From: Chloroflexi bacterium RBG_13_51_36
Lineage (GTDB): Bacteria > Chloroflexota > Dehalococcoidia > GIF9 > AB-539-J10
NCBI GenBank assembly: GCA_001796515.1
Contig: MGMS01000054.1
Coordinates: 19,481 to 83,480 of the forward strand
Direction of reading: 5' to 3'
DNA: 64,000 nt
Positions 22,859 through 50,443 of this stretch are shown one piece after another. Within the stretch, counting starts at the first letter, position 1; the number at the start of each line of letters is the position of its first letter. The position numbers and the translations under genes are program-made. The notes under the pieces were generated by a model, which saw only the letters and a program-made list of their open reading frames with translations, was not told the DNA's origin and did no database searches.

Positions 22859-22875
22859 GTAAACATACTCTATAT

Positions 22876-22948: not shown

Positions 22949-22968
22949 CTCTTCCCAGCAGTTCCCAC

Positions 22969-24515: not shown

Positions 24516-25877
24516 ATGACAGAAGTAAATAAGGGACCAGAGGCAAAAACGGACCCCAAACCCGTGACCGGCCTTGTGGATAGCGAGATAGCGCTGAAAT
24601 TGATAGCCGAAATGCTGGCCGGGAGGATTGTCAGCATTAAACCGCAGTATGATTTCACCACTGAGTTGGGGTACATCTACCCGGCCGTCGAGCAGACCTT
24701 GAACGTCAAAGCCAAAGAAGCCATGGCAATCATGGAATCCCTGGCTGCCAGGAATATCCTGAGCAAGAGCTTCTTCGACAGGCTGATCCGTTGTCCCCGG
24801 TGCCAATCTGTGAATCTTAGGCCAAGCGCCCACTGCCCTAAATGTGGCTCAGGACATATTGCGCGCGGCCGAATCCTAGAGCACTTCGCCTGCAGGTATA
24901 TCGGTGTTGAAGACGAATTCACAGCTAAGGGCAAATACATATGTCCCCGGTGCAAAATGGAGCTGCGGACTATAGGTGCCGACTACCGGAGCCAGGGAGT
25001 CCTATACAAATGCCGCGATTGCAGCGAGGTATTCAATGTGCCGTTTCTGAAGTGGCGCTGTTTGAAATGTTCCTCTCTTGTCGGCGAGGACGAGGTCGGC
25101 GAGGTAATTATCTACGCATATAGCTTCGATGAATCGAAGAGAAACTGGCTGGAATTCGAACTTCAGCCCAAAGTACGGTTCGTTGAATTTTTGAAACAGC
25201 ACGGCTACAAGGTAACAGAGAACGCGCAAGTGAAGGGAAGGTCAGGGGCGGAGCATATTGTGGATATTCTGGCCACCAGGGACGACGGCGTCGTTACTCA
25301 TACTGTCGCTATCGGGATTGAGATTGCCAGGGATAGGATAGGACTGGACAGGGTACTCGACTTCGATGTCAAAGCCTATGATAGCGGAATCCACGACAAA
25401 ATACTGGTTGTTATCCCTGAACTGGGCGAAGAGGCGAGAAAATTCGCCACCTACCAGAGGATAAAGGTGCTGGAGCCCAAAGACATGGAGATATTGCTGG
25501 CGGGCAAGGCCCAGCCAGGCCCGGAACGAGTGAAGGAACCCTTTGAATTCAAGTCCAGATCAGAGCTTATGCAATACCTGGAGAAACAGGGCTACAAAGT
25601 AAAGGAAAACGCTGAAGTCAAGGGCCGGTCCGGCGCTCTTCATAGTATAGACATACTGGCTACCAAGGACGAAGGCATTATCACTCATCGTATTGCCATC
25701 GGCGTCAGGAAAGACGAGAAACCCATGGGACTGGACAGGGTATTTGACTTCGATGATAAGGCCTATGATTCCGGCATTCTGGACAAGGTCTTTGTTGTTG
25801 CCCCCGGGCTCACCAAGGAAGCCATGCAGTTTGCCAGGCGGCAGGGAATAAAGGTCTTCGAGGTCAAGGAACTGTAG
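24516..25877 (+). CDS. multi-Zn-ribbon protein with two C-terminal copies of a ~100-aa Hjc/Mrr-like module (shared with PilB N-terminus)
   Basis: 453 aa. The centre carries four CxxC pairs: CPRC..CPKC, CPRC, CRDC, CLKC. The C-terminal half is an internal duplication: FLKQHGYKVTENAQVKGRSGAEHIVDILATRDDG... and YLEKQGYKVKENAEVKGRSGALHSIDILATKDEG... Confidence 0.8.
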   Translation: MTEVNKGPEAKTDPKPVTGLVDSEIALKLIAEMLAGRIVSIKPQYDFTTELGYIYPAVEQTLNVKAKEAMAIMESLAARNILSKSFFDRLIRCPRCQSVNLRPSAHCPKCGSGHIARGRILEHFACRYIGVEDEFTAKGKYICPRCKMELRTIGADYRSQGVLYKCRDCSEVFNVPFLKWRCLKCSSLVGEDEVGEVIIYAYSFDESKRNWLEFELQPKVRFVEFLKQHGYKVTENAQVKGRSGAEHIVDILATRDDGVVTHTVAIGIEIARDRIGLDRVLDFDVKAYDSGIHDKILVVIPELGEEARKFATYQRIKVLEPKDMEILLAGKAQPGPERVKEPFEFKSRSELMQYLEKQGYKVKENAEVKGRSGALHSIDILATKDEGIITHRIAIGVRKDEKPMGLDRVFDFDDKAYDSGILDKVFVVAPGLTKEAMQFARRQGIKVFEVKEL

Positions 25878-26708: not shown

Positions 26709-27095
26709 ATGAAAATGATACATCGTGGACAAAAAGGGTTTACCTTGATCGAACTGCTGATCGTGGTGGCCATTCTCGGTATCATCGCCGCCGTGGTTAT
26801 CCCCAACATCGCTGGCTTCATGATAACCGGGCAACTGTCGGCAGCCAACACCGAGGCAGAGCAGGTGAAAACGGGAGCACTGGGTTACTTTGGTGAGTAT
26901 GGTTACTGGCCCGCTGATTCAAGCGTCCTGGTACCCAACTATGTTACAGGAGCGCCTAAGGCCACCTACACTCTCGACGCCGATGCCGGGTGGTTGATGG
27001 GTGTCACCAACAGCACCTGGACCGCCGACATCACGTTTGACCCGGGCGTAGCCGGCGTGACCGGGAGTCACGGAAAGTGGATAAGAACGCCATAA
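26709..27095 (+). CDS. type IV major pilin (prepilin N-terminal cleavage/methylation domain)
   Basis: The leader MKMIHRGQKG is followed by FTLIELLIVVAILGIIAAVVIP, the class III signal peptide. The protein is 128 aa. Confidence 0.9.
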   Translation: MKMIHRGQKGFTLIELLIVVAILGIIAAVVIPNIAGFMITGQLSAANTEAEQVKTGALGYFGEYGYWPADSSVLVPNYVTGAPKATYTLDADAGWLMGVTNSTWTADITFDPGVAGVTGSHGKWIRTP

Positions 27096-27651: not shown

Positions 27652-27676
27652 TTCCTATTACTGATGGGTGATTGAC
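27652..27676 (+). promoter_or_regulatory. 25-nt box TTCCTATTACTGATGGGTGATTGAC upstream of pilin 2
   Basis: Identical copy of 26514-26538. Confidence 0.5.
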
Positions 27677-27700
27677 AGCAATGAAGATACACGATAGTGT
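27672..27700 (+). promoter_or_regulatory. putative pilin-2 promoter TTGACA-N17-TAGTGT
   Basis: Hexamers read from the sequence. The -35 lies inside the conserved box. Confidence 0.35.
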
Positions 27701-27761
27701 ATCGTATGAAGATGAATCACTGGAGCCGCATCTGAAGGGAAATGAAGGAGGTGGAAAAGGA

Positions 27762-28148
27762 ATGAAATTTGTGCACCATGTGGAGAAAGGCTTCACCCTG
27801 ATTGAGCTGCTTATCGTGGTGGCTATTCTGGGCATTCTGGCCGCCGTGGTTATCCCCAACATCGCTGGCTTTATGATTACCGGGCAACTGTCGGCAGCCA
27901 ACACTGAGGCGGAACAGGTGAAAACGGGAGCACTGGGCTACTTCGGTGAGTATGGCGTGTGGCCCGCCGATTCAAGTATTCTGGTGCCCAACTACGTTTC
28001 AGGAACACCTAAAGCTACCTACACTATCGACTCCAATTCTGGGTGGTTACTAAGTGTCAACGCCTGCAACTGGACCGGTGCCATCACGTTTCAGGGGGGC
28101 ACACCGGGCCCCGCTGGGAGTCACGGAAAGTGGATAAGAACGCCATAG
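27762..28148 (+). CDS. type IV major pilin, tandem paralog
   Basis: MKFVHHVEKG / FTLIELLIVVAILGILAAVVIP. GAAGGAGGTGG lies upstream of the ATG at 27762, so the track ORF start at 27672 is an upstream extension. The N-terminal two thirds are near-identical to pilin 1, and the C-terminal third diverges. Confidence 0.9.
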   Translation: MKFVHHVEKGFTLIELLIVVAILGILAAVVIPNIAGFMITGQLSAANTEAEQVKTGALGYFGEYGVWPADSSILVPNYVSGTPKATYTIDSNSGWLLSVNACNWTGAITFQGGTPGPAGSHGKWIRTP

Positions 28149-29909: not shown

Positions 29910-30977
29910 CTATAGCTTCACCTTGCCGATGAGCTTCTCCACCTCTTGGCGGTCGTTGCAGAAATCAAGCAAGGTTTTGCCACTGATGATTCCCTTAAGA
30001 TAGAGGCTGACCAGAGCTTCGTCAAGGGAAATCATGCCTATGTCTCGGTGGGTACGGATTACATTGGGTAACTGGTAGAGTTTGCCTTCACGGATGAGGC
30101 TCTTAGCTGCCGGATTGCCAAGCATAATTTCTACGGCGGCTACTCTCCCCGAGCCATCAGCCCGGGGCACAAGCACCTGACACAATGCAGCAACAAGTAG
30201 AGAAGCCAGCCGTGTCTGGGCCAGGTGGCGCTGATGGGGTGGGAACAGGTCTATTATTCTCTCCATTGCCTGACTAGCACTGGGGGCATGGCCGGTGGTC
30301 AGTATGAAGTGTCCGGTCTCAGCTACGGTAAGGACAGCATCGGCAGTATCCGGATCTCTCATCTCCCCGACCAGAATCACATCAGGATCCTGCCTTAAGA
30401 TGTGCTTTAGGGCATTAGCAAACGATAGAGTATCAGTGCCCAACTGGCGCTGGGTCACAGCACATTTAATGCTGGTGTGGACATATTCTATGGGGTCTTC
30501 AATGGTAACCACATGGCGAGTATCATTAGTATTCAAGTGCTGAATCATAGCTGCCAGGGTGGTACTTTTACCGCTGCCGGTAGGTCCAGTAATTACCACC
30601 AGTCCTCTTTGCTTCATAGCAAGCTCCTTACACAGCGGGGGCAGCTCCAGCTCATCTATGGTAGGGATTTTTGGTGGCAGCAAGCGCACGGCAAGGCTGA
30701 TAGACCCGCGCTGCTGAGCAGCATTGCATCGCAGACGCCCGACATCAGGTAACGTATATCCAAAGTCAAGCTCGAGATGGTTATGGAAGTGCTCTCTCTC
30801 CTCGGGCGTGGTTAACTGGAGAAAAGCCTCGCTTATATCCTCCGGACTCAGTGCTGCAACACCATTTGCCGGCTGTAGAGAGCCATCAATGCGAAAAGAT
30901 GCCGGGCTACCAGCAACCATATGCAAATCGCTAGCCCTTCTTGAATTACCTGTCCGAAGCAATGAAAAAACATCCAT
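29910..30977 (-). CDS. pilT: type IV pilus retraction ATPase PilT
   Basis: 355 aa with Walker A GPTGSGKSTT and the N-terminal ASDLHM..G motif, giving PilT-type length and layout. Confidence 0.85.
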   Translation of the reverse strand: MDVFSLLRTGNSRRASDLHMVAGSPASFRIDGSLQPANGVAALSPEDISEAFLQLTTPEEREHFHNHLELDFGYTLPDVGRLRCNAAQQRGSISLAVRLLPPKIPTIDELELPPLCKELAMKQRGLVVITGPTGSGKSTTLAAMIQHLNTNDTRHVVTIEDPIEYVHTSIKCAVTQRQLGTDTLSFANALKHILRQDPDVILVGEMRDPDTADAVLTVAETGHFILTTGHAPSASQAMERIIDLFPPHQRHLAQTRLASLLVAALCQVLVPRADGSGRVAAVEIMLGNPAAKSLIREGKLYQLPNVIRTHRDIGMISLDEALVSLYLKGIISGKTLLDFCNDRQEVEKLIGKVKL

Positions 30978-33123: not shown

Positions 33124-34551
33124 TTATTTTGTTAAGGATAGCGTAAAACTGAACCCGCTCGTACTATCGGTGATAGAGGAAATCCAAACTCTCGAGAATC
33201 TGCCGATGCTTCTTAAATCTCTGGCATAAGCGAAAATTGCATTCTCACTTGAAGCTATACCTTGGATAGTTACCGAGCTACCTCCATGATTAACACTGCC
33301 CAGGTCTACCTTTTGCGCCGCCAGCCCTACAATCTGGGTCAAGTCTTCGTCAAACGTGGCACGCCCCCGCTCCATAGTAACAATTCTGGCGCTAAGCTCA
33401 TTGGCAGTAGCTTCCGTCGGCCCGATCGCCGCTCTCAATGCCGCTATGTCCCCCTGTTTTTGGGCAACGTTGCCCTGGACTTGTGCCAGCTCGGAACGCA
33501 ATTCCTCAGTATAGGCGCGATTATGCTGGACAAAAATTACGCCGAAGATAACCAGACCAATACCAAGGACAACACCAACGGGGACAATGACCCGTGCTAT
33601 AGAGAAACGCGGGGGCACATAGGCCTGGGGCAGGGCATTGAAATTCACTGATGAGAAGTTGGCTTCTCCCTTTTCTGACAGTAGTTCCTTGAAAGCCAGC
33701 CCTATATTGACCATGAATTCGTTGGGATTGAAGCCCTCGGGAAATTCCCCAGGCGCGGGCAACAGCGACACTGAATAGCCTGCCCGTCCAACCACTTCCG
33801 GCCAGGCCTCCGGTACTTCTGCCAGGTCGCCACAGACAAACACGGGCACAGTTGAATCTAAGGGCTTTTCAATGTGGGTGGAATTATAGAAGGCAACAGT
33901 TCTGTTGAATTCTTCAGTAATCAGAGACATCTTTTCCTCCAGGGATTCAGCCTCGCCGGGCAGAGATACCCTGCGGATGACCTGGGGGAGTCTGTCTGCT
34001 ATAACCATAACCTCCATGTGCTCTAGCCTGGCATTTACAATGATTGCTCTGGGCTCATTCGGGATTCGGCACAGGGCTAAAGGAGCCAGGTCCATAATAT
34101 ATGGCCTGACACCGGCCTGATGCAGCGTCTTGACCAGAGCATCAGCCAGATTGCGGGGGAAGGTGGCCAAGAAAATGCGACCTTGTCCCTCCTGGGAAGG
34201 AAGGCGCTGGTATGAAAAGTATACCTCTTCCAGAGGTGTTGGTATCGTTCTCTTTGCCTCACGCTTCACTGCCTCAGGAAGTATAGCTTCAGGTAAATCG
34301 GGCAGGGTTATAATACGATACAGAGAATCATGTCCGCTCAAAGCAGTGATAACCTTGCTTGCCTGTGCTCCTGTTTCTTTGAATATCTGTTTAACCTTGG
34401 CAGCCACCTGGGCCTCATCAACAATGAACCCCTGCTTAACAAGGCCTCGCTCCAGTGGTAAACTAGCCCACTTTTCTAAATGTCTGCCATTCATTACCAG
34501 CAGGTTAATGCTGGTATCTCTAATAAATAAGGTGGTAACTTTCTTAGCCAT
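33124..34551 (-). CDS. pilM: PilM-PilN fusion (actin-like ATPase domain + TM/coiled-coil tail)
   Basis: 475 aa. The N-terminal ~310 aa are PilM-like (LFIRDTSINLLVM...). A TM segment VIVPVGVVLGIGLVIFGVIFV and a coiled coil then follow, as in PilN. Confidence 0.7.
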   Translation of the reverse strand: MAKKVTTLFIRDTSINLLVMNGRHLEKWASLPLERGLVKQGFIVDEAQVAAKVKQIFKETGAQASKVITALSGHDSLYRIITLPDLPEAILPEAVKREAKRTIPTPLEEVYFSYQRLPSQEGQGRIFLATFPRNLADALVKTLHQAGVRPYIMDLAPLALCRIPNEPRAIIVNARLEHMEVMVIADRLPQVIRRVSLPGEAESLEEKMSLITEEFNRTVAFYNSTHIEKPLDSTVPVFVCGDLAEVPEAWPEVVGRAGYSVSLLPAPGEFPEGFNPNEFMVNIGLAFKELLSEKGEANFSSVNFNALPQAYVPPRFSIARVIVPVGVVLGIGLVIFGVIFVQHNRAYTEELRSELAQVQGNVAQKQGDIAALRAAIGPTEATANELSARIVTMERGRATFDEDLTQIVGLAAQKVDLGSVNHGGSSVTIQGIASSENAIFAYARDLRSIGRFSRVWISSITDSTSGFSFTLSLTK

Positions 34552-37748: not shown

Positions 37749-38570
37749 TTATGATGCTGGTTTGGGCACAACTTTATATATCCTGGTTTCCTCTGTCTGC
37801 TGTCCACCGGTGCCCACCGTAGCAGTTACCGTGAAAATCAGCATCTTACAGTCACTGAGAGTAGCAGATTGTGCGCCGCTATCCACGGTTATGCCAGCAG
37901 TGGCAGCCTGAATTTCGGATGTCCAGCTGCCTATTGTGCCGGAGCTGGTGGCGGCAACTGTAATAATGTCCCCGGCCGTGGTTGTTGTCCACTCATGAGT
38001 ATCCGCGTCATAGGTAGCACCGCCAGCGGTGATGACCGAGATGGTTCCTGCGCTAACGATTATTGCGCCATTATCAGGTGTCGCCTCACCGGTAATATTG
38101 AACGCGTCACCAATATCAGGCAGGTTAAAGGCACTGCCACCACTAAATTTGCAATTGGTTTTAGTTTTGTCAGGGTTAATCACCTCAAACGCAGGAATCT
38201 TACCGGTTTTCTCCTCATCAAGGACACCATCGACAGAGTAGCTCCCCCTGAGACCCGAGCTATCCAGGCTAAAAACAATCTCATGCCTTTCATCCGTGTC
38301 AAAATCGATCCAGTCCAGGATAAGGGGAAACCCTGAATCTCCGGTTATTTCCGTGCCTTGAGCCGAATAGGCATATAAGCTAACCCAATAGCCAGCCTCC
38401 TGCACCTGCCTGACCGCGACCATATGGTTAGCGCTGCGGGTACTCCCGGTAAACGTCTGGAAAATAACCATGGTAACAGCCGCGGCGATTATTCCGCCAA
38501 GAGCGATAGCTATTAGCAGCTCAAGCAGAGTAAAACCCTTCTCACCTTTCTTCATCTTCTTCATCTTCAT
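37749..38570 (-). CDS. minor pilin (prepilin-type N-terminal cleavage/methylation domain)
   Basis: MKMKKMKKGEKG / FTLLELLIAIALGGIIAAAV, 273 aa. Confidence 0.85.
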   Translation of the reverse strand: MKMKKMKKGEKGFTLLELLIAIALGGIIAAAVTMVIFQTFTGSTRSANHMVAVRQVQEAGYWVSLYAYSAQGTEITGDSGFPLILDWIDFDTDERHEIVFSLDSSGLRGSYSVDGVLDEEKTGKIPAFEVINPDKTKTNCKFSGGSAFNLPDIGDAFNITGEATPDNGAIIVSAGTISVITAGGATYDADTHEWTTTTAGDIITVAATSSGTIGSWTSEIQAATAGITVDSGAQSATLSDCKMLIFTVTATVGTGGQQTEETRIYKVVPKPAS

Positions 38571-38663
38571 TGTGTTTGAGATTCAGTCGCGACTATACAG
38601 AAACTCCACATCGCACGCTCTCATTCGTAATTCGCGGTTTCTGAATTCTCAATACCCCTTTCG

Positions 38664-39191
38664 TTATCGGTCTACTTTGTAGCCCTCTAATGTGATTTCT
38701 ACGCCGTCAGCCCAGTAAGGATTGTCGTTAATAAAGGTGTATATCACCTTATCCTGGTTGTATTTGTCCTTGTGCGTGACCACGAGCGATATCTTCTGAA
38801 GGCCGTTGTCCATGTCGGCTGGCTTATTGTTTTCGCTATCCCAGGGTATACCTGTTATTTGTTCAACCTTCTCACCATTAATATCGACGCTCCAGAGAGA
38901 GTAACCCTCAGGGATACCGTCAATTTTTTGATAAATGGGGTCAGTCACCATCGTCTCAGGGCTGTAACTCTGACTTTTAACATATTCCATCTGCCTTCTG
39001 GATAGACTTTCGGCAGTGGTTCGCTCATCGGCAAGAATCAGGACATTAGAGGAAGTAGACAGGGCGCTCATGAAGGCGATGCTAATTACTCCCAGGATGG
39101 CTATGGCTAGCAGTACCTCAATAAAAGTTAAGCCCCTGGAGCGGCCTTCAAGAACTCTCCTTACCCGGCTATTCAATCTTAGTTTTTTCAT
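38664..39191 (-). CDS. minor pilin (prepilin-type N-terminal domain, degenerate)
   Basis: ...RSRG / LTFIEVLLAIAILGVISIAF. I place the start at ATG 39191. The longer track ORF (to 39344) runs through family A repeats. Confidence 0.7.
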   Translation of the reverse strand: MKKLRLNSRVRRVLEGRSRGLTFIEVLLAIAILGVISIAFMSALSTSSNVLILADERTTAESLSRRQMEYVKSQSYSPETMVTDPIYQKIDGIPEGYSLWSVDINGEKVEQITGIPWDSENNKPADMDNGLQKISLVVTHKDKYNQDKVIYTFINDNPYWADGVEITLEGYKVDR

Positions 39192-39213
39192 TTTCCCACC
39201 ATTTCCACAAAGT

Positions 39214-39349
39214 GTGGCAATTCCCTTGTCCCCACCAAGATTGGTTCGGCTGGCTTGGCCAGCCTCGCAATGCCAGGCGGGGAGTGCGTGCCAATCCCCT
39301 TGCCCCACGGGGATTGCTCCGTGCCGATAAATCGGGACTGGCAATGACG
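39214..39349. repeat. cluster of family A units between minor pilin and pilC
   Basis: aagattggttcggctggcttggccagcctcgcaatgcca, ggcggggagtgcgtgccaatccc and gggattgctccgtgccgataaatcgggactggcaatgacg. Confidence 0.6.
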
Positions 39350-39409: not shown

Positions 39410-40624
39410 CTATAAATTCACCTGCCTATAGACAGAATACATAGCTGATACCATGGCTAGGACAATAAAACCAATCACCAAACCCAGAATTACCGTCGTC
39501 ACTGGCTGAATAAGCGCCACAACCGCGTTGGTCTTGTCATTAGCATCGGCCTCAAAGCTGTCGGCTACGGTATTCAGCGTGTTCTCGAGGTTACCGGTTT
39601 CCTCACCAACCTTCACCATTTGCGTCATCATAGGCAAGAAGATGTTCCTCTTTTCCATAGGTCGGGACAAGCCTTCACCTCTGATTAAATCCTGCTGAAC
39701 TCCGGTCAGATTCTCATCCACAACCTTATTGCTGATACTATGAATGGTTACGGCCAGAACTTCTGGCAGAGGTAAGCCGACTCTGATTAACAATGACATA
39801 GTCCGGCAACAGCGGGAAAGCTCACCGAGCTGGATAACACGCCCAACTAAAGGCAAACGAAGCATCATTTGATCCCGGCGGTACCTACCGGTCGGGGTCC
39901 TGCTATAGAGATAGGCTGCGCCAATAGCAATTAGAAACACAAGCAACAGGTAAAGCCCAAATTTGTTAAGCCAACCAGCAACGCCCATAAGGATTCTGGT
40001 GGCCAGAGGTAACTCAGCTCCGAGTTGAGAATAGAAGCCGACAAAGGTGGGAAAAACAAGGTTGACCAATATAAATACGACACCAACGGCTACAGCAACT
40101 ATGATAAGGGGATAGGTCAAGGCCCCCTTTATCTTCTTTTGAGTGACGGTTCCCTTTTCCATATAATCGGCCATTTGCCTCAGCACCACCTCCAGGTTAC
40201 CACCTTGCTCACCAGCAGCTATGGCCCGGTGGAACATCGGAGAGAAAGCCTGGGGGTATTTGCTTAAAGCGGTTGACAGCGAACTACCACCACGAATATC
40301 CGCAGCTGTAGCACCGACTATCTTCTTCAAAGTTTGATTATCTATCTGACTTTGTAGTAAGTCTAAAGAAGTAACAATATCGGTGCCTGATTCAAGGAGT
40401 AAGGCTAATTGGCGGGAAAACATGATTATTTCCGCCGGCTTTACCCCGGCAAAGAAGCCTCGCAGTCTCTCTTTATTCAGCCGGGGACGAACTGACTTAA
40501 GGCTGAGCACCCGATAGCCGCCATAGGCCAGAAGTTCAGTTGCCGACTCTTCACTAGCAGCCGAAACCTTGCCACTAATTAATTTCTTCTCTTCATCAGC
40601 ATAAGCTACGTAAGTAAAATTCAT
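39410..40624 (-). CDS. pilC: type IV pilus platform protein PilC (GspF family)
   Basis: 404 aa with a duplicated GspF-type domain and 3 TM segments. A GGAGGG SD is present, and the gene follows pilB. Confidence 0.9.
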   Translation of the reverse strand: MNFTYVAYADEEKKLISGKVSAASEESATELLAYGGYRVLSLKSVRPRLNKERLRGFFAGVKPAEIIMFSRQLALLLESGTDIVTSLDLLQSQIDNQTLKKIVGATAADIRGGSSLSTALSKYPQAFSPMFHRAIAAGEQGGNLEVVLRQMADYMEKGTVTQKKIKGALTYPLIIVAVAVGVVFILVNLVFPTFVGFYSQLGAELPLATRILMGVAGWLNKFGLYLLLVFLIAIGAAYLYSRTPTGRYRRDQMMLRLPLVGRVIQLGELSRCCRTMSLLIRVGLPLPEVLAVTIHSISNKVVDENLTGVQQDLIRGEGLSRPMEKRNIFLPMMTQMVKVGEETGNLENTLNTVADSFEADANDKTNAVVALIQPVTTVILGLVIGFIVLAMVSAMYSVYRQVNL

Positions 40625-40641: not shown

Positions 40642-43011
40642 CTAAGTTACGACATAGGCATTGCGCAGTATTTCAGAAGGAGTGGTAATACCTTCCTTTA
40701 CCTTGCGCATACCATCGTTCCCTATAGATACCATACCTTCTTCAAGTGCCCGAGCTCGGATGGTACTACTGTTGGCTTGATTACAAACTAGCTCTCTTAT
40801 CGAGTCACTCACAGTTAGAATCTCAAAGATTCCCGTACGCCCCAGGTAACCGGTATAGGAGCAGGACTTACAGCCGGTACCATACAGGAACTTGGTTTGC
40901 TTCTCCCCCATTTCCTTTTCATAAGCCATCTGCTCGACCAAGGGGGGCTCAACAAGGCGACCACAATCAGGGCAAATGCGACGCACCATCCGCTGAGCGA
41001 CAACACCAACAACCGCTGAGGCTATCAAGAAGGGCTCTATCTTCAGATCAAGAAGACGGGAGAGTACACCGGCAACCTCATTGGCGTGGATAGAAGACAG
41101 CATCAGGTGCCCGGTTAAGGCTGCCTGGACAGCTATGTGAGCTGTCTCGGAATCGCGTATTTCACCGACCAGTATTACATCAGGGTCAAGACGAAGTATG
41201 GACCTCAAACCACTGGCAAAAGTAATGCCGGCCTGGGAGTTAACCTGAATCTGGCTAATATCCTTGAATCGGTACTCAGCAGGATCTTCAATAGTAATCA
41301 TGTTTCTCCCCTGAGTATCAAGGGAACTAATTGAGGCATACAGGGTAGTAGTCTTGCCAGCTCCGGTAGGGCCGCTGATCAGAAGCATACCATAGGGAAC
41401 CTTGAGCAGACTTTCATACTTTTCCAGGCTATCGGGTAGCATACCAAGCTCTGCTAACCCCAGAGTAGCCAGGGACTTATCCAGAAGCCGCAGGACTGCT
41501 GTTTCACCCCAGACAGTGGGAGCGGTAGCGACTCTGATATCTATCGGTCGCCCTTTAGCCTCGGTAGAGAACTGACCATCCTGAGGGCGAAAATGGTCAG
41601 CGATATTCATTTCAGCGAGAATCTTAATTCGTGAAATGAGCGCCCGGTGTACGGTCAGTGGTAGAGCCATCGTATCTTGAAGGGTGCCATCTATACGATA
41701 GCGTATGCGCAATCTATCTTCTTCTGGCTCAATATGAATGTCAGACGCGCGGGCTTTAACGGCCTCTTCAATTATAAGGTTGAGAGCCTGCACCAGAGGG
41801 GTATCAGTAGCAACTCTAGTGGCAAGCTTCTCATCAGTTGTTTCATCAGGGATGGAGATACGAGAAACCTGCTTTTCAATTTCACCATAGGCTTTATAAT
41901 TGAAGTCAATAGCGTCTCTGACTTCCTGGGCAGTGGCAGCTATAGGCTTAATCCTCATTCGACTCTGGGCGGAAAGAGCCTCCAGAGCAAAGATATCAGT
42001 CGGGTCTGCCATAGCCACTTCCAGTGTCTTACCAGATATAGTCATAGGTATGGCATTGTACTTTCTGGCCATCACCTCGGGAATCAATTGTAGTGCCTCA
42101 GGTTGGGGCATCTGCCTCAACAGCTTGGCCCGAACCTTATCTGTCTTGACCGGCTTCTCTGCTCCTCGAATAGGTAATTCTTCAATCACAGGTTTAGAAC
42201 CTGGTTTCTGGACCAGTTTAAGGACTTTTATCTGCTGGTGCTGGGCAAATTGCCGCGCCTCGGGACTAAGCTCCATCGTCACCATAATGACCTTCTCGTC
42301 AACACCAACTTCGAAGGCCTTGGTATCAAATAGCATCACCTGTTGAAGGCTCACTTCCTTGTCCCCATCGAGGAAATCGATGCCCGCTCTACGCTGAACG
42401 TCACCGATTTCGGCATGAGCCAGAATATCGAAGGTAAATTCAATCCCCGACCGGCCTTTGACTCTGGCCTTCTCCTTTATTCGATAGCCACGGTCGATTA
42501 GCGACCTGACCAGTTCTTCCTTTGTCCCAAACCTGACTGGCTCCTCAGGCTTGGCTGGCCGCGCGGCCTGTGCAGCCACCAGTTCCCCGATTTGTTCTCC
42601 GTCAATAACCTTTATTCTTTGTTTGCGGGCCAGCTGTTTCGCCTCTTGACTGAGATCAGGAATAGCGACAAGAATTCTGTCAAGGATGCCGGAGTCATAC
42701 GCTTTATTGGCAAGGCTGAAAATAGTGCCCACCTCTATCTCACGGTCACCACCACCCCCAATGCCTATGGCAATAGTGTAGCTGGTGAAGCCGTCGTCTC
42801 TTTGGGCCAGCATATCAAAGGTATGCTCGATTCCCGAGTTCCCGAGGCGTTTAGCACCCTCGGTTACGGTATAACCCTGCTGCTCCAGATACTCTATAAT
42901 CTGTGCCCTGATCTTCGAATTAGCCTCCATCTCAGGCGTGCCCTTATACACCTTGTGTGACTCGGGCACAGTGTAATTCGCCAACTGGTTGAAGTCAATA
43001 TTCTTACCCAT
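40642..43011 (-). CDS. pilB: type IV pilus assembly ATPase PilB/GspE with ~265-aa N-terminal extension (two Hjc/Mrr-like modules)
   Basis: 789 aa. The C-terminal part has a T2SSE_N-like domain, Walker A GPTGAGKTTT, and the tetracysteine motif CPDC...CKSC. The N-terminus carries two copies of the module found in the 24516-25877 protein: YLEQQGYTVTEGAKRLGNSGIEHTFDMLAQRDDG... and LIDRGYRIKEKARVKGRSGIEFTFDILAHAE... Confidence 0.9.
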   Translation of the reverse strand: MGKNIDFNQLANYTVPESHKVYKGTPEMEANSKIRAQIIEYLEQQGYTVTEGAKRLGNSGIEHTFDMLAQRDDGFTSYTIAIGIGGGGDREIEVGTIFSLANKAYDSGILDRILVAIPDLSQEAKQLARKQRIKVIDGEQIGELVAAQAARPAKPEEPVRFGTKEELVRSLIDRGYRIKEKARVKGRSGIEFTFDILAHAEIGDVQRRAGIDFLDGDKEVSLQQVMLFDTKAFEVGVDEKVIMVTMELSPEARQFAQHQQIKVLKLVQKPGSKPVIEELPIRGAEKPVKTDKVRAKLLRQMPQPEALQLIPEVMARKYNAIPMTISGKTLEVAMADPTDIFALEALSAQSRMRIKPIAATAQEVRDAIDFNYKAYGEIEKQVSRISIPDETTDEKLATRVATDTPLVQALNLIIEEAVKARASDIHIEPEEDRLRIRYRIDGTLQDTMALPLTVHRALISRIKILAEMNIADHFRPQDGQFSTEAKGRPIDIRVATAPTVWGETAVLRLLDKSLATLGLAELGMLPDSLEKYESLLKVPYGMLLISGPTGAGKTTTLYASISSLDTQGRNMITIEDPAEYRFKDISQIQVNSQAGITFASGLRSILRLDPDVILVGEIRDSETAHIAVQAALTGHLMLSSIHANEVAGVLSRLLDLKIEPFLIASAVVGVVAQRMVRRICPDCGRLVEPPLVEQMAYEKEMGEKQTKFLYGTGCKSCSYTGYLGRTGIFEILTVSDSIRELVCNQANSSTIRARALEEGMVSIGNDGMRKVKEGITTPSEILRNAYVVT

Positions 43012-43315: not shown

Positions 43316-44020
43316 TCAGATCTCGCCAAAATCCTCTAGCGCCCTCCGTGGTTTTACCTCCGGTGAAATCCAGCCGCTGCGCAGGGCAAGGGCAACGGCG
43401 TGGGCCCTGTCATTGGCATTCAGCTTGCGAAGGATGGCGCTGACATGATTCTTAATTGTCTGCTCGCTTATCGTCAAGATACGGGCGATTTCTTTATTCG
43501 AGTTGCCTTCAGCGACGTAGGTTAGAATCTGCGTTTCCCTCTTAGTGAGGGGAGCGGCTACGCCTTCCATAGTCTTGGCAAGACCGCGAAACTGGTTCAA
43601 GACCTGCTTGGCAACCTTAGGCCTGGTCATCAAGCTTTCGTTGATGGGATACTCACCACCGTGGGCTCGCCTTATGGTATTGGCCAGTTCATCGCCGGTG
43701 GCCCTCTTGCTCAAGCAGCCTGCGGCGGCGGTTTTGATGACCTCAAAAAGCTCTTCATCATTGGGGTCAGGGCTCAGCACTATCACTTTGGTATTCGGAT
43801 AGTATTGGGCGATCTTCCTGCTCAGGTCAATCCCGCTAAGGCTGGTCAGGTCAGAGCCCAGCAAAACCACATCAGGGAGATTAGCTTCAATCAGCTCCAG
43901 CGCATTCTGAGCGGGATCGCACTCCAGCACCTCCAAATCCGATTGTTGGGACAACGCCTGGCGCACGCCGGTCCTGAACATTGCCTGCTCATCAATTATC
44001 ATCACTTTTATCTTGTCCAA
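43316..44020 (-). CDS. response regulator, NarL/FixJ (LuxR-type HTH) family
   Basis: Has a REC domain (VMIIDEQ...DVVLLGSDL) and a C-terminal LTKRETQILTYVAEGNSNKEIA HTH. The start is TTG, with AGGAGGTG 5 nt upstream. Confidence 0.9.
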   Translation of the reverse strand: MDKIKVMIIDEQAMFRTGVRQALSQQSDLEVLECDPAQNALELIEANLPDVVLLGSDLTSLSGIDLSRKIAQYYPNTKVIVLSPDPNDEELFEVIKTAAAGCLSKRATGDELANTIRRAHGGEYPINESLMTRPKVAKQVLNQFRGLAKTMEGVAAPLTKRETQILTYVAEGNSNKEIARILTISEQTIKNHVSAILRKLNANDRAHAVALALRSGWISPEVKPRRALEDFGEI

Positions 44021-44951: not shown

Positions 44952-45116
44952 CTTCTTCGCATTTTCCCCGCGACTATATCTCCACAGCTTCAAATAGAAC
45001 TATCTTCTAGAAAATAATCTCTTCCCAAGCTATTCCGCTATTGCCATACTGTCGTCAACATAGCTATTCCTTCGTTGTCATGCCGAATGACACGGAGGAA
45101 AGCCGGAGGGACAGTT
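44952..45116 (+). promoter_or_regulatory. conserved leader of GH3 paralog 1 (palindrome TAGAAC-TAT-CTTCTA at 44995-45009; hairpin GTCATGCCGAATGAC at 45077-45091)
   Basis: Roughly nine in ten positions are identical, by eye, to 50278-50443 upstream of paralog 2. A possible TTCAAA-N18-AATAAT promoter has the palindrome in its spacer. Confidence 0.5.
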
Positions 45117-46790
45117 ATGGCAAGACCAGTCGAGTTACTGCGCCAAGGCAGAAAAGAAGAGCTATGGCAGATGTGCTGCGGCTTCATTGACCTCAGCCTG
45201 CAGCAGTTTATGGTTATCCAGAAGAGGCTACTTTTGGAGCAGATTGAGTTATTAAAGAACTGCGAATTAGGCAGGAAGGTAATGCATGGTGCTACGCCCG
45301 AGACAATAGAAGAATTCCGTGAACAAGTGCCATTGACCACCTATGGCGATTATTTACCCGAGCTTGTGGAAAAGAGAGAGGATCTGTTACCAACCAGGGT
45401 CGCCAGATGGGTGCGAACTTCGGGCCACACAGGTGAGTATGACGTTAAGTGGATACCCGCTTCACAGGGATTTCTTGATGAATACGAGAAGATAGCCACA
45501 GGTGTGTTTCTTTTCACTATGTGCGACAGGCGGGGCGATACCTCTAAGGTTAAGGAACATCTTAAGGTGCTATACACCGTCGGCCCTCCCGAATACGGAA
45601 GCGGCCTCGGTGTCCAGTTGACACAGAAAGCGGTTAACTATGATTTACTGCCTTCCAACCGCAACGAGATTACGTCGTTTCGCGAAGTAATACAGGCCGG
45701 GTTCAGGGAGGCTTTGTATCGGGGACTGGATGGATTTGGCGGGTTATCTTCCGTCCTGGTAGCCGTGGGCGAGCAGCTCCAGCAGCAGTCGGGTAAGATA
45801 AAGATTACCTCTTTGTTATCTCACCCCGCTGCTCTGTTCCGTGTAGTAAAGGGATTAACCAGGAGCAAGCTGGCTCATCGCCCTATGCTACCCAAAGACT
45901 TATGGTCTATCAAGTTTATTGGTGGCGGTGGTGCAGATTGCGCTATATTCGGAAAAAGAGTCGAGGAACTATGGGGGCGCCATCCCTTAGAGGCTTATGG
46001 CGGTTCAGAAGGGGGAATGTGCGCTTGTCAAACCTGGGATTACGAGGGCATGACTTTTGTCCCTAGCCTTAATTTCTTTGAGTTCATCCCCGAAAGAGAA
46101 TGGTTCAAGTGGCAACTGGACCATTCTTATCGACCGAAGACTGTTTTACTTGACGAGGTAGAAGCTGGAAAGGTTTACGAGATAGTCATCACCAATTTTC
46201 ATGGTGGTATCATGACCAGATATCGGCCCGGTGACCTGATAAAGATAGGTTCATTGCGAAACGAGAGGCTCAATATCGACATTCCTCAGATGACATTCCA
46301 TAGCCGGGCCGACGACCTGATCGATATCACGGGTTTCGGTCACCTGACCGAAAGGATAATCTGGGAGGCAATTGAGGGCGCGGGTATTCCCTATGCCGAT
46401 TGGACAGCGCGTAAAGAGGCAAAAGATGGCAAACCCATTCTGCATCTCTACCTTGAACTTAAGGACGACTTCATTGCCAGCGAGCAAGCCGTAGCGGCAG
46501 CGATATATGATGCGCTCATAAAACTGGACAGTGTGTATCACTATAACATTTACGATGCTTACGGCGACCCCGAGACCGTGCTCGGTCTAAAACCCGTAGA
46601 AGTCAGCTTCCTTCCCGATGGTACCTTCACCCGTTATATCAACGAACGGCAAGCTGGGGGAGCCGCACTCGGGCACTTGAAGCCACCACACATAAATCCT
46701 TCCGAGAAAGTCCTCTCCCTGCTTGGGGTCCGCAAGGTTGAGGTCGAGGCTGCCGTACCCGTAACGGAAGCCGAACGCACGGCCGCTTGA
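45117..46790 (+). CDS. GH3-family (acyl-acid amido synthetase-like) adenylate-forming enzyme
   Basis: About 557 aa. The length and motifs (..SSG/TSG-type region, GGGAD, YGGSEG, NFFEFIPE) fit bacterial GH3 auxin-responsive-promoter family proteins. GGAGGG lies 6 nt upstream of the ATG at 45117. Confidence 0.7.
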   Translation: MARPVELLRQGRKEELWQMCCGFIDLSLQQFMVIQKRLLLEQIELLKNCELGRKVMHGATPETIEEFREQVPLTTYGDYLPELVEKREDLLPTRVARWVRTSGHTGEYDVKWIPASQGFLDEYEKIATGVFLFTMCDRRGDTSKVKEHLKVLYTVGPPEYGSGLGVQLTQKAVNYDLLPSNRNEITSFREVIQAGFREALYRGLDGFGGLSSVLVAVGEQLQQQSGKIKITSLLSHPAALFRVVKGLTRSKLAHRPMLPKDLWSIKFIGGGGADCAIFGKRVEELWGRHPLEAYGGSEGGMCACQTWDYEGMTFVPSLNFFEFIPEREWFKWQLDHSYRPKTVLLDEVEAGKVYEIVITNFHGGIMTRYRPGDLIKIGSLRNERLNIDIPQMTFHSRADDLIDITGFGHLTERIIWEAIEGAGIPYADWTARKEAKDGKPILHLYLELKDDFIASEQAVAAAIYDALIKLDSVYHYNIYDAYGDPETVLGLKPVEVSFLPDGTFTRYINERQAGGAALGHLKPPHINPSEKVLSLLGVRKVEVEAAVPVTEAERTAA

Positions 46791-50000: not shown

Positions 50001-50111
50001 AGACAGGGCGCCGGGGGTCAGTTTGACCCTAAGCTGGTGGAGGTCTTCATAGGCGTTATTGCGGCTGGACTTCCCGGTAAGGTAAACATGAATCAAGACG
50101 TACTCATCTAG
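47046..50111 (+). CDS. membrane sensor 7TM - GAF - GGDEF - HD-GYP (bifunctional c-di-GMP enzyme)
   Basis: 1021 aa. The N-terminal ~290 aa carry about 7 TM helices. The central part is GAF-like. The GGDEF domain has RYGGDEF and an RxxD I-site (RDAD) 5 residues upstream. The HD-GYP domain has LLHDIGK and HHERWDGSGYP. Confidence 0.9.
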   Translation: MNTHALIPLVATVAYVPLLAIVLISRPWQPQQRLFFLFLVPAMLWSATDIFFRSSIFNDEQQKLLLVKMVLFCAVWMIVQYRYFMQSFYKSDVAKKPFAYIILAVFTGLLVAPNLVPYGQPGIEHGIAFARLNGDIINMHVNYGPFVYTIAAVFLAITARDMYGLIRKLKVPENVEQRNQIIYLFIGLACLAIFGIVTFRFSAEGIPVGHIGNFLNACILTYAVVTHRLLDVRVVARRAIMYIVLYGGSLGILLVVAWLISYFSSSHVVEFETIALFIGLGFSAVLFLVHRMRDFWQRKVEEAFIGERYHYRTLLSKFITTIQNVSSMKQFGDGFVSLVSQSIGCHRACLLLPEAQEEGFNTRFVYPPAKDNPMSELKLRSDNPIVTWLKKNRILLHERNLSIFPEFKSIWQKEIEAIRLAGIEAFVPLVNVEELVGILVVGEKWDGTSYTVEDFHLLNEIGAQVAASMEKEYSHEQLKEQEAEMNLVNRLTTIITSSMSINLIFEAFVEELKQVVDIDWATIAMVDGDEVYFLALTGTVESAWQLEERIPLKGTATESACRERRAVYEPDLRRHHRFSTWQNYLKQGVSSVVYLPLSVADRTIGTLVLASHKHNAYDRSQIRLLEKVALQIAAPIENAQLYARAEQKSRIDELTGLFNRRYFEERLKEEIARHSRYGNAFSVFMLDLDNFKTYNDVYGHPAGDSLLSQMGSMVKCSIRDADQAFRYGGDEFVVILPQTPRDDAYVVADRVREQIAGEMEQRSITVTCSIGLASYPVDGVIAEELVIAADTALYYAKWTGGNRIYFSSKAISESPDNGKSSGRRDGLSAVYALVSVVESRDPYVYGHSRKVNAYAVALTEALGLPPDEVSSVSTAALLHDIGKIGIPDEVLNKKEQLSRENWEAIKAHPRLGKNIVSSIPQLVHCADSILYHHERWDGSGYPAGLKGEEIPIGARVIAIADSFEAMTSARPYRPPLSREEALEELRQGAGGQFDPKLVEVFIGVIAAGLPGKVNMNQDVLI

Positions 50112-50277: not shown

Positions 50278-50443
50278 CTTCCTCGCATTTTCCCCTGCGA
50301 CTTCATCCCCACAGCTTCGAATAGAACTATGTTCTAGAAAATAATCTCTTCCCAAACTACTCCGCTATTGCCATACTGTCATTAACATGGCTATTTCTTC
50401 CTTGTCATGCCGAATGACACCGAGGAAAGCCGGAAGGACAGTT
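50278..50443 (+). promoter_or_regulatory. conserved leader of GH3 paralog 2 (perfect palindrome TAGAAC-TAT-GTTCTA at 50322-50336; hairpin at 50404-50418)
   Basis: See 44952-45116. Confidence 0.5.

What the first reader, a model, noticed from the sequence alone, without database searches (positions are those of the whole stretch)
42217..43011. PilB assembly ATPase carries an N-terminal extension built from two copies of a module that recurs four times in the window
Upstream of the usual T2SSE_N + AAA core, PilB (40642-43011, minus strand) has about 265 extra residues that form two ~100-aa repeats. The first begins YLEQQGYTVTEGAKRLGNSGIEHTFDMLAQRDDG...AYDSGILDRILVAIPDLSQEAKQLARKQRIKVI. The second begins LIDRGYRIKEKARVKGRSGIEFTFDILAHAE...AFEVGVDEKVIMVTMELSPEARQFAQHQQIKVL.

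The same module occurs twice in the separate protein 24516-25877. Its layout is helix-GY-beta, then G.SG...D-h-h-A, then h-A-I-G-h. This resembles the Hjc/Mrr-type PD-(D/E)xK core. However, the E-x-K position is not conserved across the four copies (EIA, RKD, GGG, DFL), so nuclease activity is unlikely.

I do not know of a described PilB/GspE family with such an N-terminal module. Known N-terminal regulatory add-ons, such as the c-di-GMP-binding MshEN, look different. The module could be a ligand-, nucleic-acid- or partner-binding input that gates pilus extension.
Basis: partly seen in the sequence, partly recalled or inferred. Interest (0 to 1): 0.75.

Follow-up and report, generated by a model that had tools for sequence, protein, structure and literature searches.

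The report
Dead nuclease pair on pilus ATPase
The motor protein that builds type IV pili in this uncultured Dehalococcoidia bacterium carries two copies of a restriction-enzyme-like domain that has lost its cutting residues. A zinc-ribbon protein in the same pilus gene cluster carries the same pair, which points to a pilus control module that has not been described.

Summary
PilB (40642-43011, minus strand, 789 aa) has two ~115-aa modules at residues 31-150 and 160-275. These lie ahead of a normal N1E + T2SSE ATPase core. The same module occurs twice at the C-terminus of the protein encoded at 24516-25877. All four copies are significantly similar to each other, and there are exactly four in the window.

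The module is a Mrr_cat-type PD-(D/E)xK domain. It scores above the Pfam cut-off, and the AlphaFold model's best Foldseek match is the Mrr-like AF1548. It keeps the beta2 Asp but has no (E/Q)xK, so it is probably not a nuclease.

The second protein is TackOD1 + 2 modules. TackOD1 is already known to sit in archaeal pilus loci.

The fusion is real and old. At least 71 species-level Dehalococcoidia/Chloroflexota MAGs have PilB with two modules, and some have four. dN/dS of the modules equals that of the ATPase core. The TackOD1 gene is syntenic with the pilus operon. In sister lineages it sits directly upstream of a pilB that lacks the extension.

My best reading is a non-catalytic regulatory or adaptor module that couples PilB to the TackOD1 regulator. 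A shared ligand sensor is about as likely. I found no paper describing this. I class it as a new variant of a known kind.

The parts
40642..43011 (-). pilB: type IV pilus assembly ATPase, 789 aa, with the N-terminal extension
   Evidence: ORF. T2SSE hit 5.6e-126 at residues 402-783 and MshEN/N1E hit at 298-371. Walker A GPTGAGKTT, DPDVILVGEIRD and the CPDC...CKSC motif are visible in the translation.
42562..42921 (-). RE module B1 (PilB residues 31-150): Mrr_cat-like PD-(D/E)xK domain with no (E/Q)xK
   Evidence: Module HMM hit 3.1e-53. Mrr_cat 1.2e-06, 29 bits against cut-off 21, for this module alone. Model pLDDT is above 90 over most of it. dN/dS 0.08-0.18.
42187..42534 (-). RE module B2 (PilB residues 160-275): the more divergent copy. 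His33 is replaced by Tyr, the DDG loop is lost, and a class-specific Asp sits in beta3.
   Evidence: Module HMM hit 9.8e-54. Class signatures. dN/dS 0.15-0.24.
41899..42120 (-). N1E-type domain (Pfam MshEN/T2SSE_N, residues 298-371) without the c-di-GMP-binding motif
40663..41808 (-). T2SSE ATPase core (residues 402-783)
24516..25877 (+). TackOD1 + 2 RE modules, 453 aa: the putative partner or regulator
   Evidence: TackOD1 hit 1.5e-40 at residues 24-203, and Mrr_cat 53.4 bits. AF2 model pLDDT 86.8, pTM 0.70.
25158..25514 (+). RE module T1 (residues 215-333)
25545..25874 (+). RE module T2 (residues 344-453)
26709..27095 (+). Type IV pilin (128 aa), the first of two paralogous pilin genes right after the TackOD1 gene
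   Evidence: N_methyl motif 2.1e-10. Sequence.
27672..28148 (+). Second paralogous type IV pilin. The real start is probably the internal Met before KGFTLIELL.
   Evidence: N_methyl motif 2.4e-09. Sequence.
29910..30977 (-). pilT-like retraction ATPase (355 aa), the last gene of the minus-strand pilus operon
   Evidence: T2SSE hit 3.5e-41.
33124..34551 (-). PilM-PilN fusion
   Evidence: PilM_2 and PilN hits.
37749..39344 (-). Two pilin-like genes with N_methyl motifs (37749-38570 and 38664-39344)
39410..40624 (-). pilC platform protein (T2SSF)
   Evidence: T2SSF hit 8.4e-56.
43316..44020 (-). REC + LuxR-type HTH response regulator directly upstream of pilB. It is syntenic in most related loci.
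   Evidence: It is found upstream of pilB, at 59-89% identity, in most of the related loci L001-L080.

Best explanation
The N-terminal ~275 residues of PilB are two Mrr-type restriction-endonuclease-fold domains that have lost the (E/Q)xK half of the active site. They most likely pack against each other as an intramolecular pseudo-dimer. They do not cut DNA.

I propose that they act as a regulatory or adaptor platform on the pilus extension motor. Through it, PilB is tied to the TackOD1-RE protein encoded in the same pilus cluster. The most likely contact is RE-to-RE, the way restriction-fold domains normally pair. The partner could then gate hexamer assembly, ATPase activity, or docking of PilB onto the PilM/PilC platform.

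**Shown:**
- the fold and the degenerate motif;
- conservation of the fusion under purifying selection;
- synteny of the two genes;
- sister lineages in which the TackOD1-RE gene abuts a pilB that lacks the extension.

**Inferred:**
- loss of catalysis;
- the pseudo-dimer;
- the physical contact;
- the effect on PilB.
For: **The fold is restriction-endonuclease-like.**
- Pfam Mrr_cat scores above its cut-off, and 26 of 31 single modules hit it alone.
- The AF2 model has pLDDT 84.5 and pTM 0.73.
- Foldseek's top match is AF1548 (E = 1.6e-6), followed by R2 RLE, Can2/Cdn1, EndoMS, EcoT38I, MspJI and FokI.

**The catalytic motif is degenerate.**
- The beta2 Asp is kept in 93-100% of modules. It aligns to the Asp of AF1548 'IDVVA'.
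- No class has (E/Q)xK in beta3. For comparison, EcoKMrr has D203 and Q219-A-K221.

**The fusion is real and selected.**
- 71 of 80 related loci encode PilB with two modules as one ORF. L079 and P0133 have four modules.
- dN/dS is 0.08-0.24 for the modules and 0.11-0.26 for the ATPase core.

**PilB and the TackOD1-RE protein are linked.**
- At least 37 assemblies hold both proteins.
- 50 of 80 TackOD1-RE loci have a pilus gene within 5.2 kb (median 1.06 kb). In 24 of the other 30, the contig ends less than 3 kb downstream.
- In L139, L141, L154-157 and L159 the TackOD1-RE gene lies directly upstream of a pilB without modules. In L154 the gap is 28 nt and PilB is 519 aa.
- TackOD1 (arCOG06883) was already reported in thaumarchaeal pilus loci (PMC4858521, PMC5847659).
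- A one-module TackOD1-RE gene follows a T2SSE-T2SSF-T2SSF operon in L165.

**RE modules can be split over adjacent genes.** In L168 a stand-alone 144-aa RE ORF follows a TackOD1-RE gene. L167 has three RE-bearing genes.

**Precedent, from my own knowledge.** Inactive restriction-fold paralogues pair with partners in XPF-ERCC1 and MUS81-EME1.
Against:
- A mirror-tree test gave only a weak excess correlation between the PilB and TackOD1 module pairs once PilB-core divergence was removed (partial r = 0.16).
- A tandem pair that satisfies its dimer interface in cis has less need for a partner in trans.
- TackOD1-RE proteins also occur beside GT2 polysaccharide synthases and ATPases that carry no RE module. 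RE-RE docking therefore cannot be their general mode of action.
- The same polar residues are nearly invariant in all module classes and in distant one-module relatives: S29, G30, D36, K72, Y74, D75, Q100. This fits a shared ligand or catalytic-type site better than a mere interface.
Confidence: 0.4

Rival explanations
1. Shared ligand sensor. Each RE pair binds a small phosphate-bearing ligand, such as a nucleotide second messenger, in the remnant active-site region. PilB and the TackOD1 protein each read the same signal on their own. The module would then be a functional analogue of the c-di-GMP-binding MshEN domain of other PilB/MshE ATPases.
For: - The same polar and charged positions are more than 90% conserved in classes B1, T1 and T2 and in distant one-module relatives from WOR-3 and putative archaea.
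- B2 has lost His33 and the DDG loop. This is typical of a pseudo-dimer that keeps one working site.
- The module is combined with different partners: REC-TackOD1, CARDB-TackOD1 and PilB.
- TackOD1-RE sits beside both pilus ATPases and GT2 synthases, the same pair of targets that c-di-GMP receptors control.
- This PilB lacks the MshEN c-di-GMP motif.
- A GAF-GGDEF-HD-GYP enzyme is encoded 4 kb away, at 47046-50111.
- From my own knowledge: NucC is a restriction-fold protein that is allosterically controlled by a cyclic oligonucleotide.
Against:
- I know of no Mrr_cat-type domain shown to be a small-molecule receptor.
- In REC-TackOD1-RE proteins the RE pair sits in the output position rather than the input position.
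- Conserved polar residues could be structural.
Confidence: 0.3
2. Nucleic-acid-binding domain. The dead nuclease still binds DNA or RNA. It might tie the pilus motor to DNA uptake (a competence pilus) or to the nucleoid, or it might make the TackOD1 protein a DNA-binding regulator of the adjacent pilin genes.
For: - The fold is a DNA-binding fold, and the nearest structures are DNA enzymes.
- Several basic positions are conserved: G-R/K-S-G, K72, K/R81, R101.
- The TackOD1-RE gene lies directly upstream of two pilin genes.
Against: - All four module classes are net acidic, from -1.6 to -3.7 per module.
- PilB works at the cytoplasmic face of the membrane.
- No HTH was detected by Pfam in the TackOD1 protein.
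- The one apparent HTH fusion (P0026) looks like an insertion or a chimera.
Confidence: 0.12
3. Passive structural or oligomerisation element. The pair only stabilises or spaces the PilB hexamer and has no signalling role.
For: - Restriction-fold domains are natural dimerisers.
- The copy number varies among related PilBs: 0, 2 or 4.
Against: - Selection on the modules is as strong as on the ATPase core.
- Each class keeps its own signature at more than 90%.
- The module is constantly paired with a signalling-type protein (REC-TackOD1-RE) in the same loci.
Confidence: 0.1
4. Active nuclease. The modules still cleave nucleic acid, with a relocated Lys (for example K103 in helix alpha2) completing the active site.
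For: - The beta2 Asp is kept.
- A Lys-x-Tyr-Asp motif in the following helix is nearly invariant.
- From my own knowledge: migration of catalytic residues is known in this superfamily.
Against: - No (E/Q)xK, and the second acidic residue is not conserved.
- No hit to any defence-system model.
- There is no methyltransferase or other restriction context. The context is a pilus operon in about 70 species.
Confidence: 0.04
5. Artefact. A mis-assembly or a missed stop or frameshift has joined a separate restriction-enzyme gene to pilB.
For: A few loci show the pair and the core in separate frames: L048, L053, L066 and L078.
Against: - The window ORF is uninterrupted.
- 71 independent assemblies have the same single ORF.
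- The linker and both modules are under purifying selection.
Confidence: 0.01

Closest known systems
MshEN-domain PilB/MshE ATPases (type IV pilus extension ATPases gated by c-di-GMP)
   Same: Both have a regulatory domain placed N-terminal to the N1E + T2SSE core of a pilus extension ATPase. The operon partners are the same: PilC, PilM/N, PilT and pilins.
   Different: The fold is unrelated: a restriction-endonuclease alpha/beta fold rather than a helical MshEN bundle. The c-di-GMP motif is absent here. The ligand, if there is one, is unknown.
Mrr_cat (PF04471) nucleases such as EcoKMrr and AF1548 (PDB 1Y88)
   Same: The same Pfam family, scoring above the cut-off, and the same fold. The beta2 Asp and the C-terminal 'hhhT/P..h..EA..FA' helix are kept.
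   Different: There is no (E/Q)xK. The module is a tandem pair in one chain. It is fused to an ATPase or to TackOD1 rather than to a DNA-recognition domain. It sits in a pilus context rather than a restriction context.
TackOD1 / arCOG06883 proteins (Makarova 2016, Galperin 2018)
   Same: The partner protein's N-terminus is TackOD1 (139 bits). As reported for Thaumarchaeota, it sits in type IV pilus loci. REC-TackOD1 forms exist here as well.
   Different: The C-terminal RE module or modules are not mentioned in those papers: 'Mrr' and 'restriction endonuclease' do not occur in their main texts. The reference archaeal protein AFS80801 (318 aa) is REC + TackOD1 only. The fusion of the companion module to PilB is new.
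Inactive restriction-fold paralogues used as partner domains (ERCC1 with XPF, EME1 with MUS81; Pfam NA-iREase1 in NACHT NTPases)
   Same: A catalytically degenerate PD-(D/E)xK domain is kept for pairing or sensing rather than cutting. There are weak NA-iREase1 hits (19.9 bits; 5 of 31 modules).
   Different: There is no active partner nuclease here. NA-iREase1 scores below its cut-off. The biological setting is different: pilus biogenesis rather than DNA repair or immunity. The comparison with ERCC1 and EME1 is from my own knowledge and was not tested.

Membership tests
Mrr_cat (PF04471) / PD-(D/E)xK superfamily | Profile-HMM score at or above Pfam's gathering cut-off (21 bits) | tested here: met
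   PilB scores 36.2 bits and the TackOD1 protein 53.4 bits. 26 of 31 isolated modules match at E < 0.01.
Mrr_cat (PF04471) / PD-(D/E)xK superfamily | alpha-beta-beta-beta-alpha-beta core fold similar to solved restriction-type nucleases | tested here: met
   This was tested on a predicted model only. The AF2 model has pLDDT 84.5 and the expected order of helices and strands. Foldseek's top PDB hits are 1Y88 (E = 1.6e-6), R2 RLE, Can2/Cdn1, EndoMS, EcoT38I, MspJI and FokI. The second protein gives the same result.
Mrr_cat (PF04471) / PD-(D/E)xK superfamily | Catalytic motif D ... (E/Q)xK | tested here: not met
   The Asp at the start of beta2 is kept in 93-100% of modules. The beta3 positions are G/C/D-x-variable, with no conserved Lys in any of the four classes. 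The EcoKMrr reference motif is D203 and Q219-x-K221.
Mrr_cat (PF04471) / PD-(D/E)xK superfamily | Metal-dependent DNA cleavage | not testable with these tools
   This needs a biochemical assay.
NA-iREase1 (PF22722) | Score at or above the gathering cut-off (27 bits) | tested here: not met
   19.9 bits on PilB. Only 5 of 31 modules reach E < 0.01.
PilB/GspE-type type IV pilus assembly ATPase | T2SSE ATPase domain with Walker A/B and the N1E domain | tested here: met
   PF00437 scores 420.6 bits and PF05157 scores 58.3 bits. GPTGAGKTT and DPDVILVGEIRD are present in the translation.
PilB/GspE-type type IV pilus assembly ATPase | Operon with PilC, PilM/N, pilins and PilT | tested here: met
   The same gene order is seen in the related loci.
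PilB/GspE-type type IV pilus assembly ATPase | NCBIfam equivalog cut-off (TIGR02538 PilB 675.65; TIGR02533 GspE 630.25) | tested here: not met
   500.5 and 527.4 bits, both below the cut-offs. These models were built mainly on other phyla, so I rely on the operon context for the PilB assignment.
MshEN c-di-GMP receptor domain | 24-residue motif RLGxx(L/V/I)(L/V/I)xxG(L/V/I)(L/V/I)xxxxLxxxLxxQ (motif quoted from my own knowledge) | tested here: not met
   A regular-expression search of PilB finds no match, and not even an [RK]LG..[LVIM] core. The Pfam MshEN hit covers only the N1E-like part, residues 298-371.
TackOD1 (PF18551), for the partner protein | Score at or above the cut-off (32 bits) and the conserved Cys/His zinc-ribbon motifs | tested here: met
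   139.2 bits. The Cys positions and H123 are invariant in 30 homologues.
TackOD1 (PF18551), for the partner protein | Genomic association with type IV pilus loci | tested here: met
   50 of 80 loci have a pilus gene within 5.2 kb, and most of the rest are cut by contig ends. Literature: PMC4858521 and PMC5847659.

The most novel reading that the evidence does not exclude
The degenerate Mrr-type module is a new receptor domain, for a nucleotide second messenger or another phosphate-bearing signal. Together with TackOD1, it forms a widespread control system for cell-surface machines in Chloroflexota, WOR-3 and TACK-type archaea. It would act on both type IV pilus ATPases and GT2 polysaccharide synthases, in parallel to the c-di-GMP/MshEN/PilZ system. 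In Dehalococcoidia the receptor has been wired directly onto the pilus motor.
Probability: 0.15. Interest if true: 0.85.

Novelty: new variant of a known kind. Interest (0 to 1): 0.6.

Why it matters
**Pilus control.** Cells decide when and where to extend type IV pili mainly through what is attached to the N-terminus of PilB. The only well-understood add-on is the c-di-GMP-binding MshEN domain. Here a whole order-level lineage of environmentally abundant, uncultured Dehalococcoidia has replaced it with a pair of disarmed restriction-enzyme domains.

**TackOD1.** The same module is the constant companion of TackOD1. That domain has been known since 2016-2018 to sit in archaeal pilus loci and to act as a response-regulator output, but its function is unknown. 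The fusion, the synteny and the adjacency in sister lineages give 'Rosetta stone'-type evidence that TackOD1-RE proteins act on PilB. This makes the TackOD1 question directly testable with two soluble recombinant proteins.

**Exaptation.** It is also another clear case of a nuclease fold recruited for a non-catalytic role.

Tried and rejected
- **PDB sequence search.** Profile searches with the pair (A1) and the single module (A3) gave nothing significant. The best hit was AF1548 at E = 0.42. It was useful only for placing the beta2 Asp.
- **hhalign against EcoKMrr.** The module profile aligned only the C-terminal helix of a single EcoKMrr sequence. I placed the catalytic positions by secondary structure and the AF1548 alignment instead.
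- **Mirror-tree test.** I tested co-evolution between the PilB and TackOD1 module pairs in 35 assemblies. The raw r was 0.76. After controlling for PilB-core divergence the partial r was only 0.16. This is inconclusive and I did not use it as support.
- **P0026.** This apparent 'RE pair + MerR/HTH_17' architecture has a truncated second module that runs into an excisionase-like HTH, on a single 1.7-kb contig. I rejected it as an insertion or a chimera. P0043, P0048 and similar 'pair-only' proteins are truncated gene calls of TackOD1 proteins.
- **Defence-system reading.** PADLOC gave no meaningful hit.
- **Homologue search with the TackOD1 profile.** It returned only fragments of close relatives and did not reach archaea.
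- **Viral fold search.** It only repeated the restriction-fold result.
- **TackOD1 profile against PDB.** It found only generic zinc ribbons, with MCM at E = 0.03. The possible winged-helix at TackOD1 residues 24-106 therefore rests on predicted secondary structure alone, and I do not claim it.
- **WOR-3 homologue.** Its context (P0171) shows no pilus or GT2 link.
Full report
**1. The observation**

The window has one uninterrupted 789-aa ORF at 40642-43011 on the minus strand. Pfam finds the usual PilB parts only in the C-terminal two thirds: MshEN/N1E at residues 298-371 and T2SSE at 402-783, the latter at 5.6e-126.

A profile built from the four proposed copies delimits two modules in PilB (31-150 and 160-275). 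It delimits two more at the C-terminus of the 453-aa product of 24516-25877 (215-333 and 344-453).
- All pairwise BLASTP comparisons are significant, with 32-55% identity and E-values from about 1e-15 to 5e-43.
- tblastn finds exactly these four places in the 64-kb window.

**2. What the module is**

Both proteins match Pfam Mrr_cat (PF04471) above its gathering cut-off: 36.2 and 53.4 bits against 21. 26 of 31 isolated modules from different proteins match it on their own.

I ran AlphaFold2 on PilB 1-283 with a 40-sequence alignment. The model has pLDDT 84.5 and pTM 0.73, and each half shows the alpha-beta-beta-beta-alpha-beta order.

Foldseek against the PDB returns the Mrr-like AF1548 (1Y88) first, at E = 1.6e-6. 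Then come the R2 endonuclease domain, VC1899/Can2/Cdn1 nuclease domains, EndoMS/NucS, EcoT38I, MspJI, AspBHI and FokI. The viral library gives 'restriction endonuclease' hits. The model of the second protein (pLDDT 86.8, pTM 0.70) gives the same matches. The fold assignment is solid.

The active site is half gone.
- The Asp at the start of beta2 (PilB D66) is kept in 93-100% of 302 modules. It aligns with the Asp of AF1548 'IDVVA'.
- At the beta3 positions where EcoKMrr has Q219-A-K221, no class has a conserved (E/Q)xK.

A set of polar residues is nearly invariant across all classes: G-x-S-G...H...D-(I/L)-L-A, D-D-G, K-A-Y-D-x-G-I, (K/R) and Q-R-I-K. It is also kept in distant one-module relatives.

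Each of the four classes has its own signature, held at more than 90%.
- PilB's second module has Tyr for His33, has lost DDG, and has a class-specific Asp in beta3.
- PilB's first module has Ala where the other three classes have Asp70.

Within-class identity averages about 59%. B1-B2 is 33%, T1-T2 is 51%, and B-T is about 40%.

**3. The genomic setting**

The minus-strand operon reads as follows:
- a REC-LuxR regulator (43316-44020);
- pilB;
- pilC;
- two pilin-like genes;
- two unknown genes;
- pilM-N;
- an Ig-domain protein;
- pilT (29910-30977).

The second module-bearing protein has TackOD1 (PF18551, 1.5e-40) at its N-terminus. On the plus strand it is followed by two paralogous pilin genes at 26709-27095 and 27672-28148. 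Both module-bearing genes therefore belong to one pilus cluster spanning about 24.5-44 kb.

TackOD1 (arCOG06883) was described as an output domain of archaeal response regulators and as a zinc-ribbon protein of thaumarchaeal type IV pilus loci. Its function is unknown (PMC5847659, PMC4858521). Neither paper mentions a restriction-endonuclease companion domain.

**4. Relatives elsewhere**

A scan of one genome per species found 224 relatives of the pair. The best 80 are nearly all labelled Dehalococcoidia or Chloroflexota MAGs. All 80 are N-terminal to a PilB core, within the same operon order. As single ORFs, 71 have 2 modules + PilB. The exceptions are contig ends or frameshifts. L079 has four modules in a 1098-aa PilB, as does the P0133 cluster at 1111 aa.

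I compared the window with seven close loci. The modules evolve under purifying selection as strong as that on the ATPase core:

| Region | dN/dS |
|---|---|
| Module 1 | 0.08-0.18 |
| Module 2 | 0.15-0.24 |
| ATPase core | 0.11-0.26 |
| First 30 residues | 0.23-0.79 |

A second scan found 122 TackOD1-RE relatives.
- At least 37 assemblies have both proteins, many on the same contig.
- 50 of 80 loci have a pilus gene within 5.2 kb (median 1.06 kb). In 24 of the remaining 30, the contig ends less than 3 kb downstream.
- The gene sits in one of three positions: next to pilT in convergent orientation; directly after pilT on the same strand; or, in L139, L141, L154-157 and L159, directly upstream of a pilB with no modules. 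In L154, which comes from a complete 2.46-Mb chromosome, the gap is 28 nt and PilB is 519 aa.

**5. Wider distribution of the module**

A single-module profile searched against 1.84 billion representative proteins gives 1087 hits at E < 1e-3 and 216 at E < 1e-10. The sampled architectures are:
- REC-(zinc ribbon)-TackOD1-2xRE;
- CARDB-TackOD1-2xRE;
- TackOD1-2xRE;
- RE4-PilB;
- TackOD1 + one RE module, in proteins of about 320 aa.

One of the one-module proteins is from WOR-3 bacteria.

The contexts of the non-Dehalococcoidia members vary.
- One follows a T2SSE-T2SSF-T2SSF operon (L165).
- Three lie next to processive GT2 glycosyltransferases (L162, L167, L168).
- Two show neither link.
- In L168 a stand-alone 144-aa RE module is encoded right after the TackOD1-RE gene. 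L167 has three RE-bearing genes.

**6. How it most likely works**

*Shown:*
- the fold;
- loss of (E/Q)xK;
- a conserved, selected fusion;
- tight and old synteny with the TackOD1-RE gene;
- adjacency of that gene to an extension-less pilB in sister lineages.

*Inferred:*
- The pair does not cleave DNA.
- It forms an intramolecular pseudo-dimer. This rests on pTM only.
- It is a regulatory or adaptor platform that couples PilB to the TackOD1-RE protein.

I put 0.40 on coupling through RE-RE contact and 0.30 on the rival in which both proteins independently sense the same ligand.
- The ligand model explains the invariant polar residues better. It also explains the asymmetric decay of PilB's second module, and the co-occurrence of TackOD1-RE with both pilus ATPases and GT2 synthases. 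That co-occurrence resembles the target range of c-di-GMP receptors.
- This PilB lacks the MshEN c-di-GMP motif. A GAF-GGDEF-HD-GYP enzyme is encoded 4 kb from the operon.
- The docking model explains the gene-neighbour and fusion pattern better, and the split RE genes in L168.

The other readings are less likely:

| Reading | Confidence | Main point |
|---|---|---|
| Nucleic-acid binding | 0.12 | Weakened by the net acidic charge of all classes |
| Passive scaffold | 0.10 | |
| Residual nuclease activity | 0.04 | No defence-system hit |
| Assembly artefact | 0.01 | Excluded |

**7. Comparison with what is known**

The ATPase is an ordinary PilB-type enzyme by domain content and operon context, although it scores below the NCBIfam equivalog cut-offs. 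The extension is a member of Mrr_cat by profile and fold, but it fails the catalytic-motif test. It is therefore best described as an inactivated Mrr_cat derivative. It is not NA-iREase1, because it scores below that cut-off.

The functional analogy is to MshEN-type N-terminal regulatory domains of PilB/MshE. There is no homology to them.

Five full-text searches found no description of a PilB/GspE with such a domain. Public annotation calls the fragments 'restriction endonuclease' or 'general secretion pathway protein E'.

**8. Verdict**

This is a real, conserved and previously undescribed domain architecture: a new variant of a known kind. It carries a specific, testable link between PilB and the uncharacterised TackOD1 family.

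Interest is 0.6. The mechanism is unproven and the organisms are uncultured. However, the two soluble proteins make the question experimentally tractable.

Noticed in passing
window 47046-50111 (+): A 1021-aa protein with a 7TM sensor, two GAF domains, GGDEF and HD-GYP (HD_5). It is a c-di-GMP turnover enzyme encoded about 3 kb from the regulator gene (43316-44020) that lies just upstream of pilB. The PilB itself lacks the c-di-GMP-binding MshEN motif.
   Followed up: partly
window 45075-46790 (+) and 50387-52108 (+): Two paralogous GH3-family proteins (acyl-acid amido synthetase-like) flank the GGDEF/HD-GYP gene. This family is unusual in bacteria.
   Followed up: no
window 26709-27095 and 27672-28148 (+): Two tandem, closely related type IV pilin genes lie directly downstream of the TackOD1-RE gene. 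A truncated 23S-rRNA-IVS (four-helix-bundle) ORF at 26081-26314 lies between the TackOD1 gene and the pilins.
   Followed up: partly
window 22467-23051 (+): A cluster of five tRNA genes (Trp, Leu-GAG, Gly-GCC, Cys, Leu-TAA) lies just upstream of the pilus cluster.
   Followed up: no
L079 9971-13267; protein cluster P0133: PilB variants of 1098-1111 aa carry four RE modules (two pairs joined by an ~85-residue acidic linker) instead of two. The module copy number on PilB is therefore 0, 2 or 4 in related lineages.
   Followed up: partly
L079 9513-9935: A 140-aa ORF directly upstream of the four-module pilB has weak Roadblock/LC7 and MAPKK1_Int similarity (E = 0.01-0.04). It could be an MglB-like polarity factor. 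The hit is below threshold.
   Followed up: no
L162 12299-13786; L167 4985-7114; L168 9545-10951: Outside Dehalococcoidia, TackOD1-RE genes lie next to processive GT2 glycosyltransferases (Glyco_trans_2_3 / chitin-synthase-like) in three of six contexts examined. TackOD1-RE may therefore act on polysaccharide synthases as well as pili.
   Followed up: partly
L168 9013-9447; L167 1087-2217, 2734-3693 and 8971-9921: A stand-alone 144-aa RE module is encoded right after a one-module TackOD1-RE gene. Another locus has three RE-bearing genes. This suggests that RE modules can pair in trans.
   Followed up: partly
window 40642-43011 compared with L002, L004, L006, L027 and L033: Synonymous divergence is about twice as high in the RE-module region (dS 0.7-1.0) as in the N1E/ATPase part of the same gene (dS 0.23-0.48). 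Possible causes are codon-usage constraint or recombination within pilB. This is unexplained.
   Followed up: no
window 29242-29484 (+): A small UPF0150/HicB-like antitoxin-type ORF lies between the pilin genes and pilT. No partner toxin was looked for.
   Followed up: no
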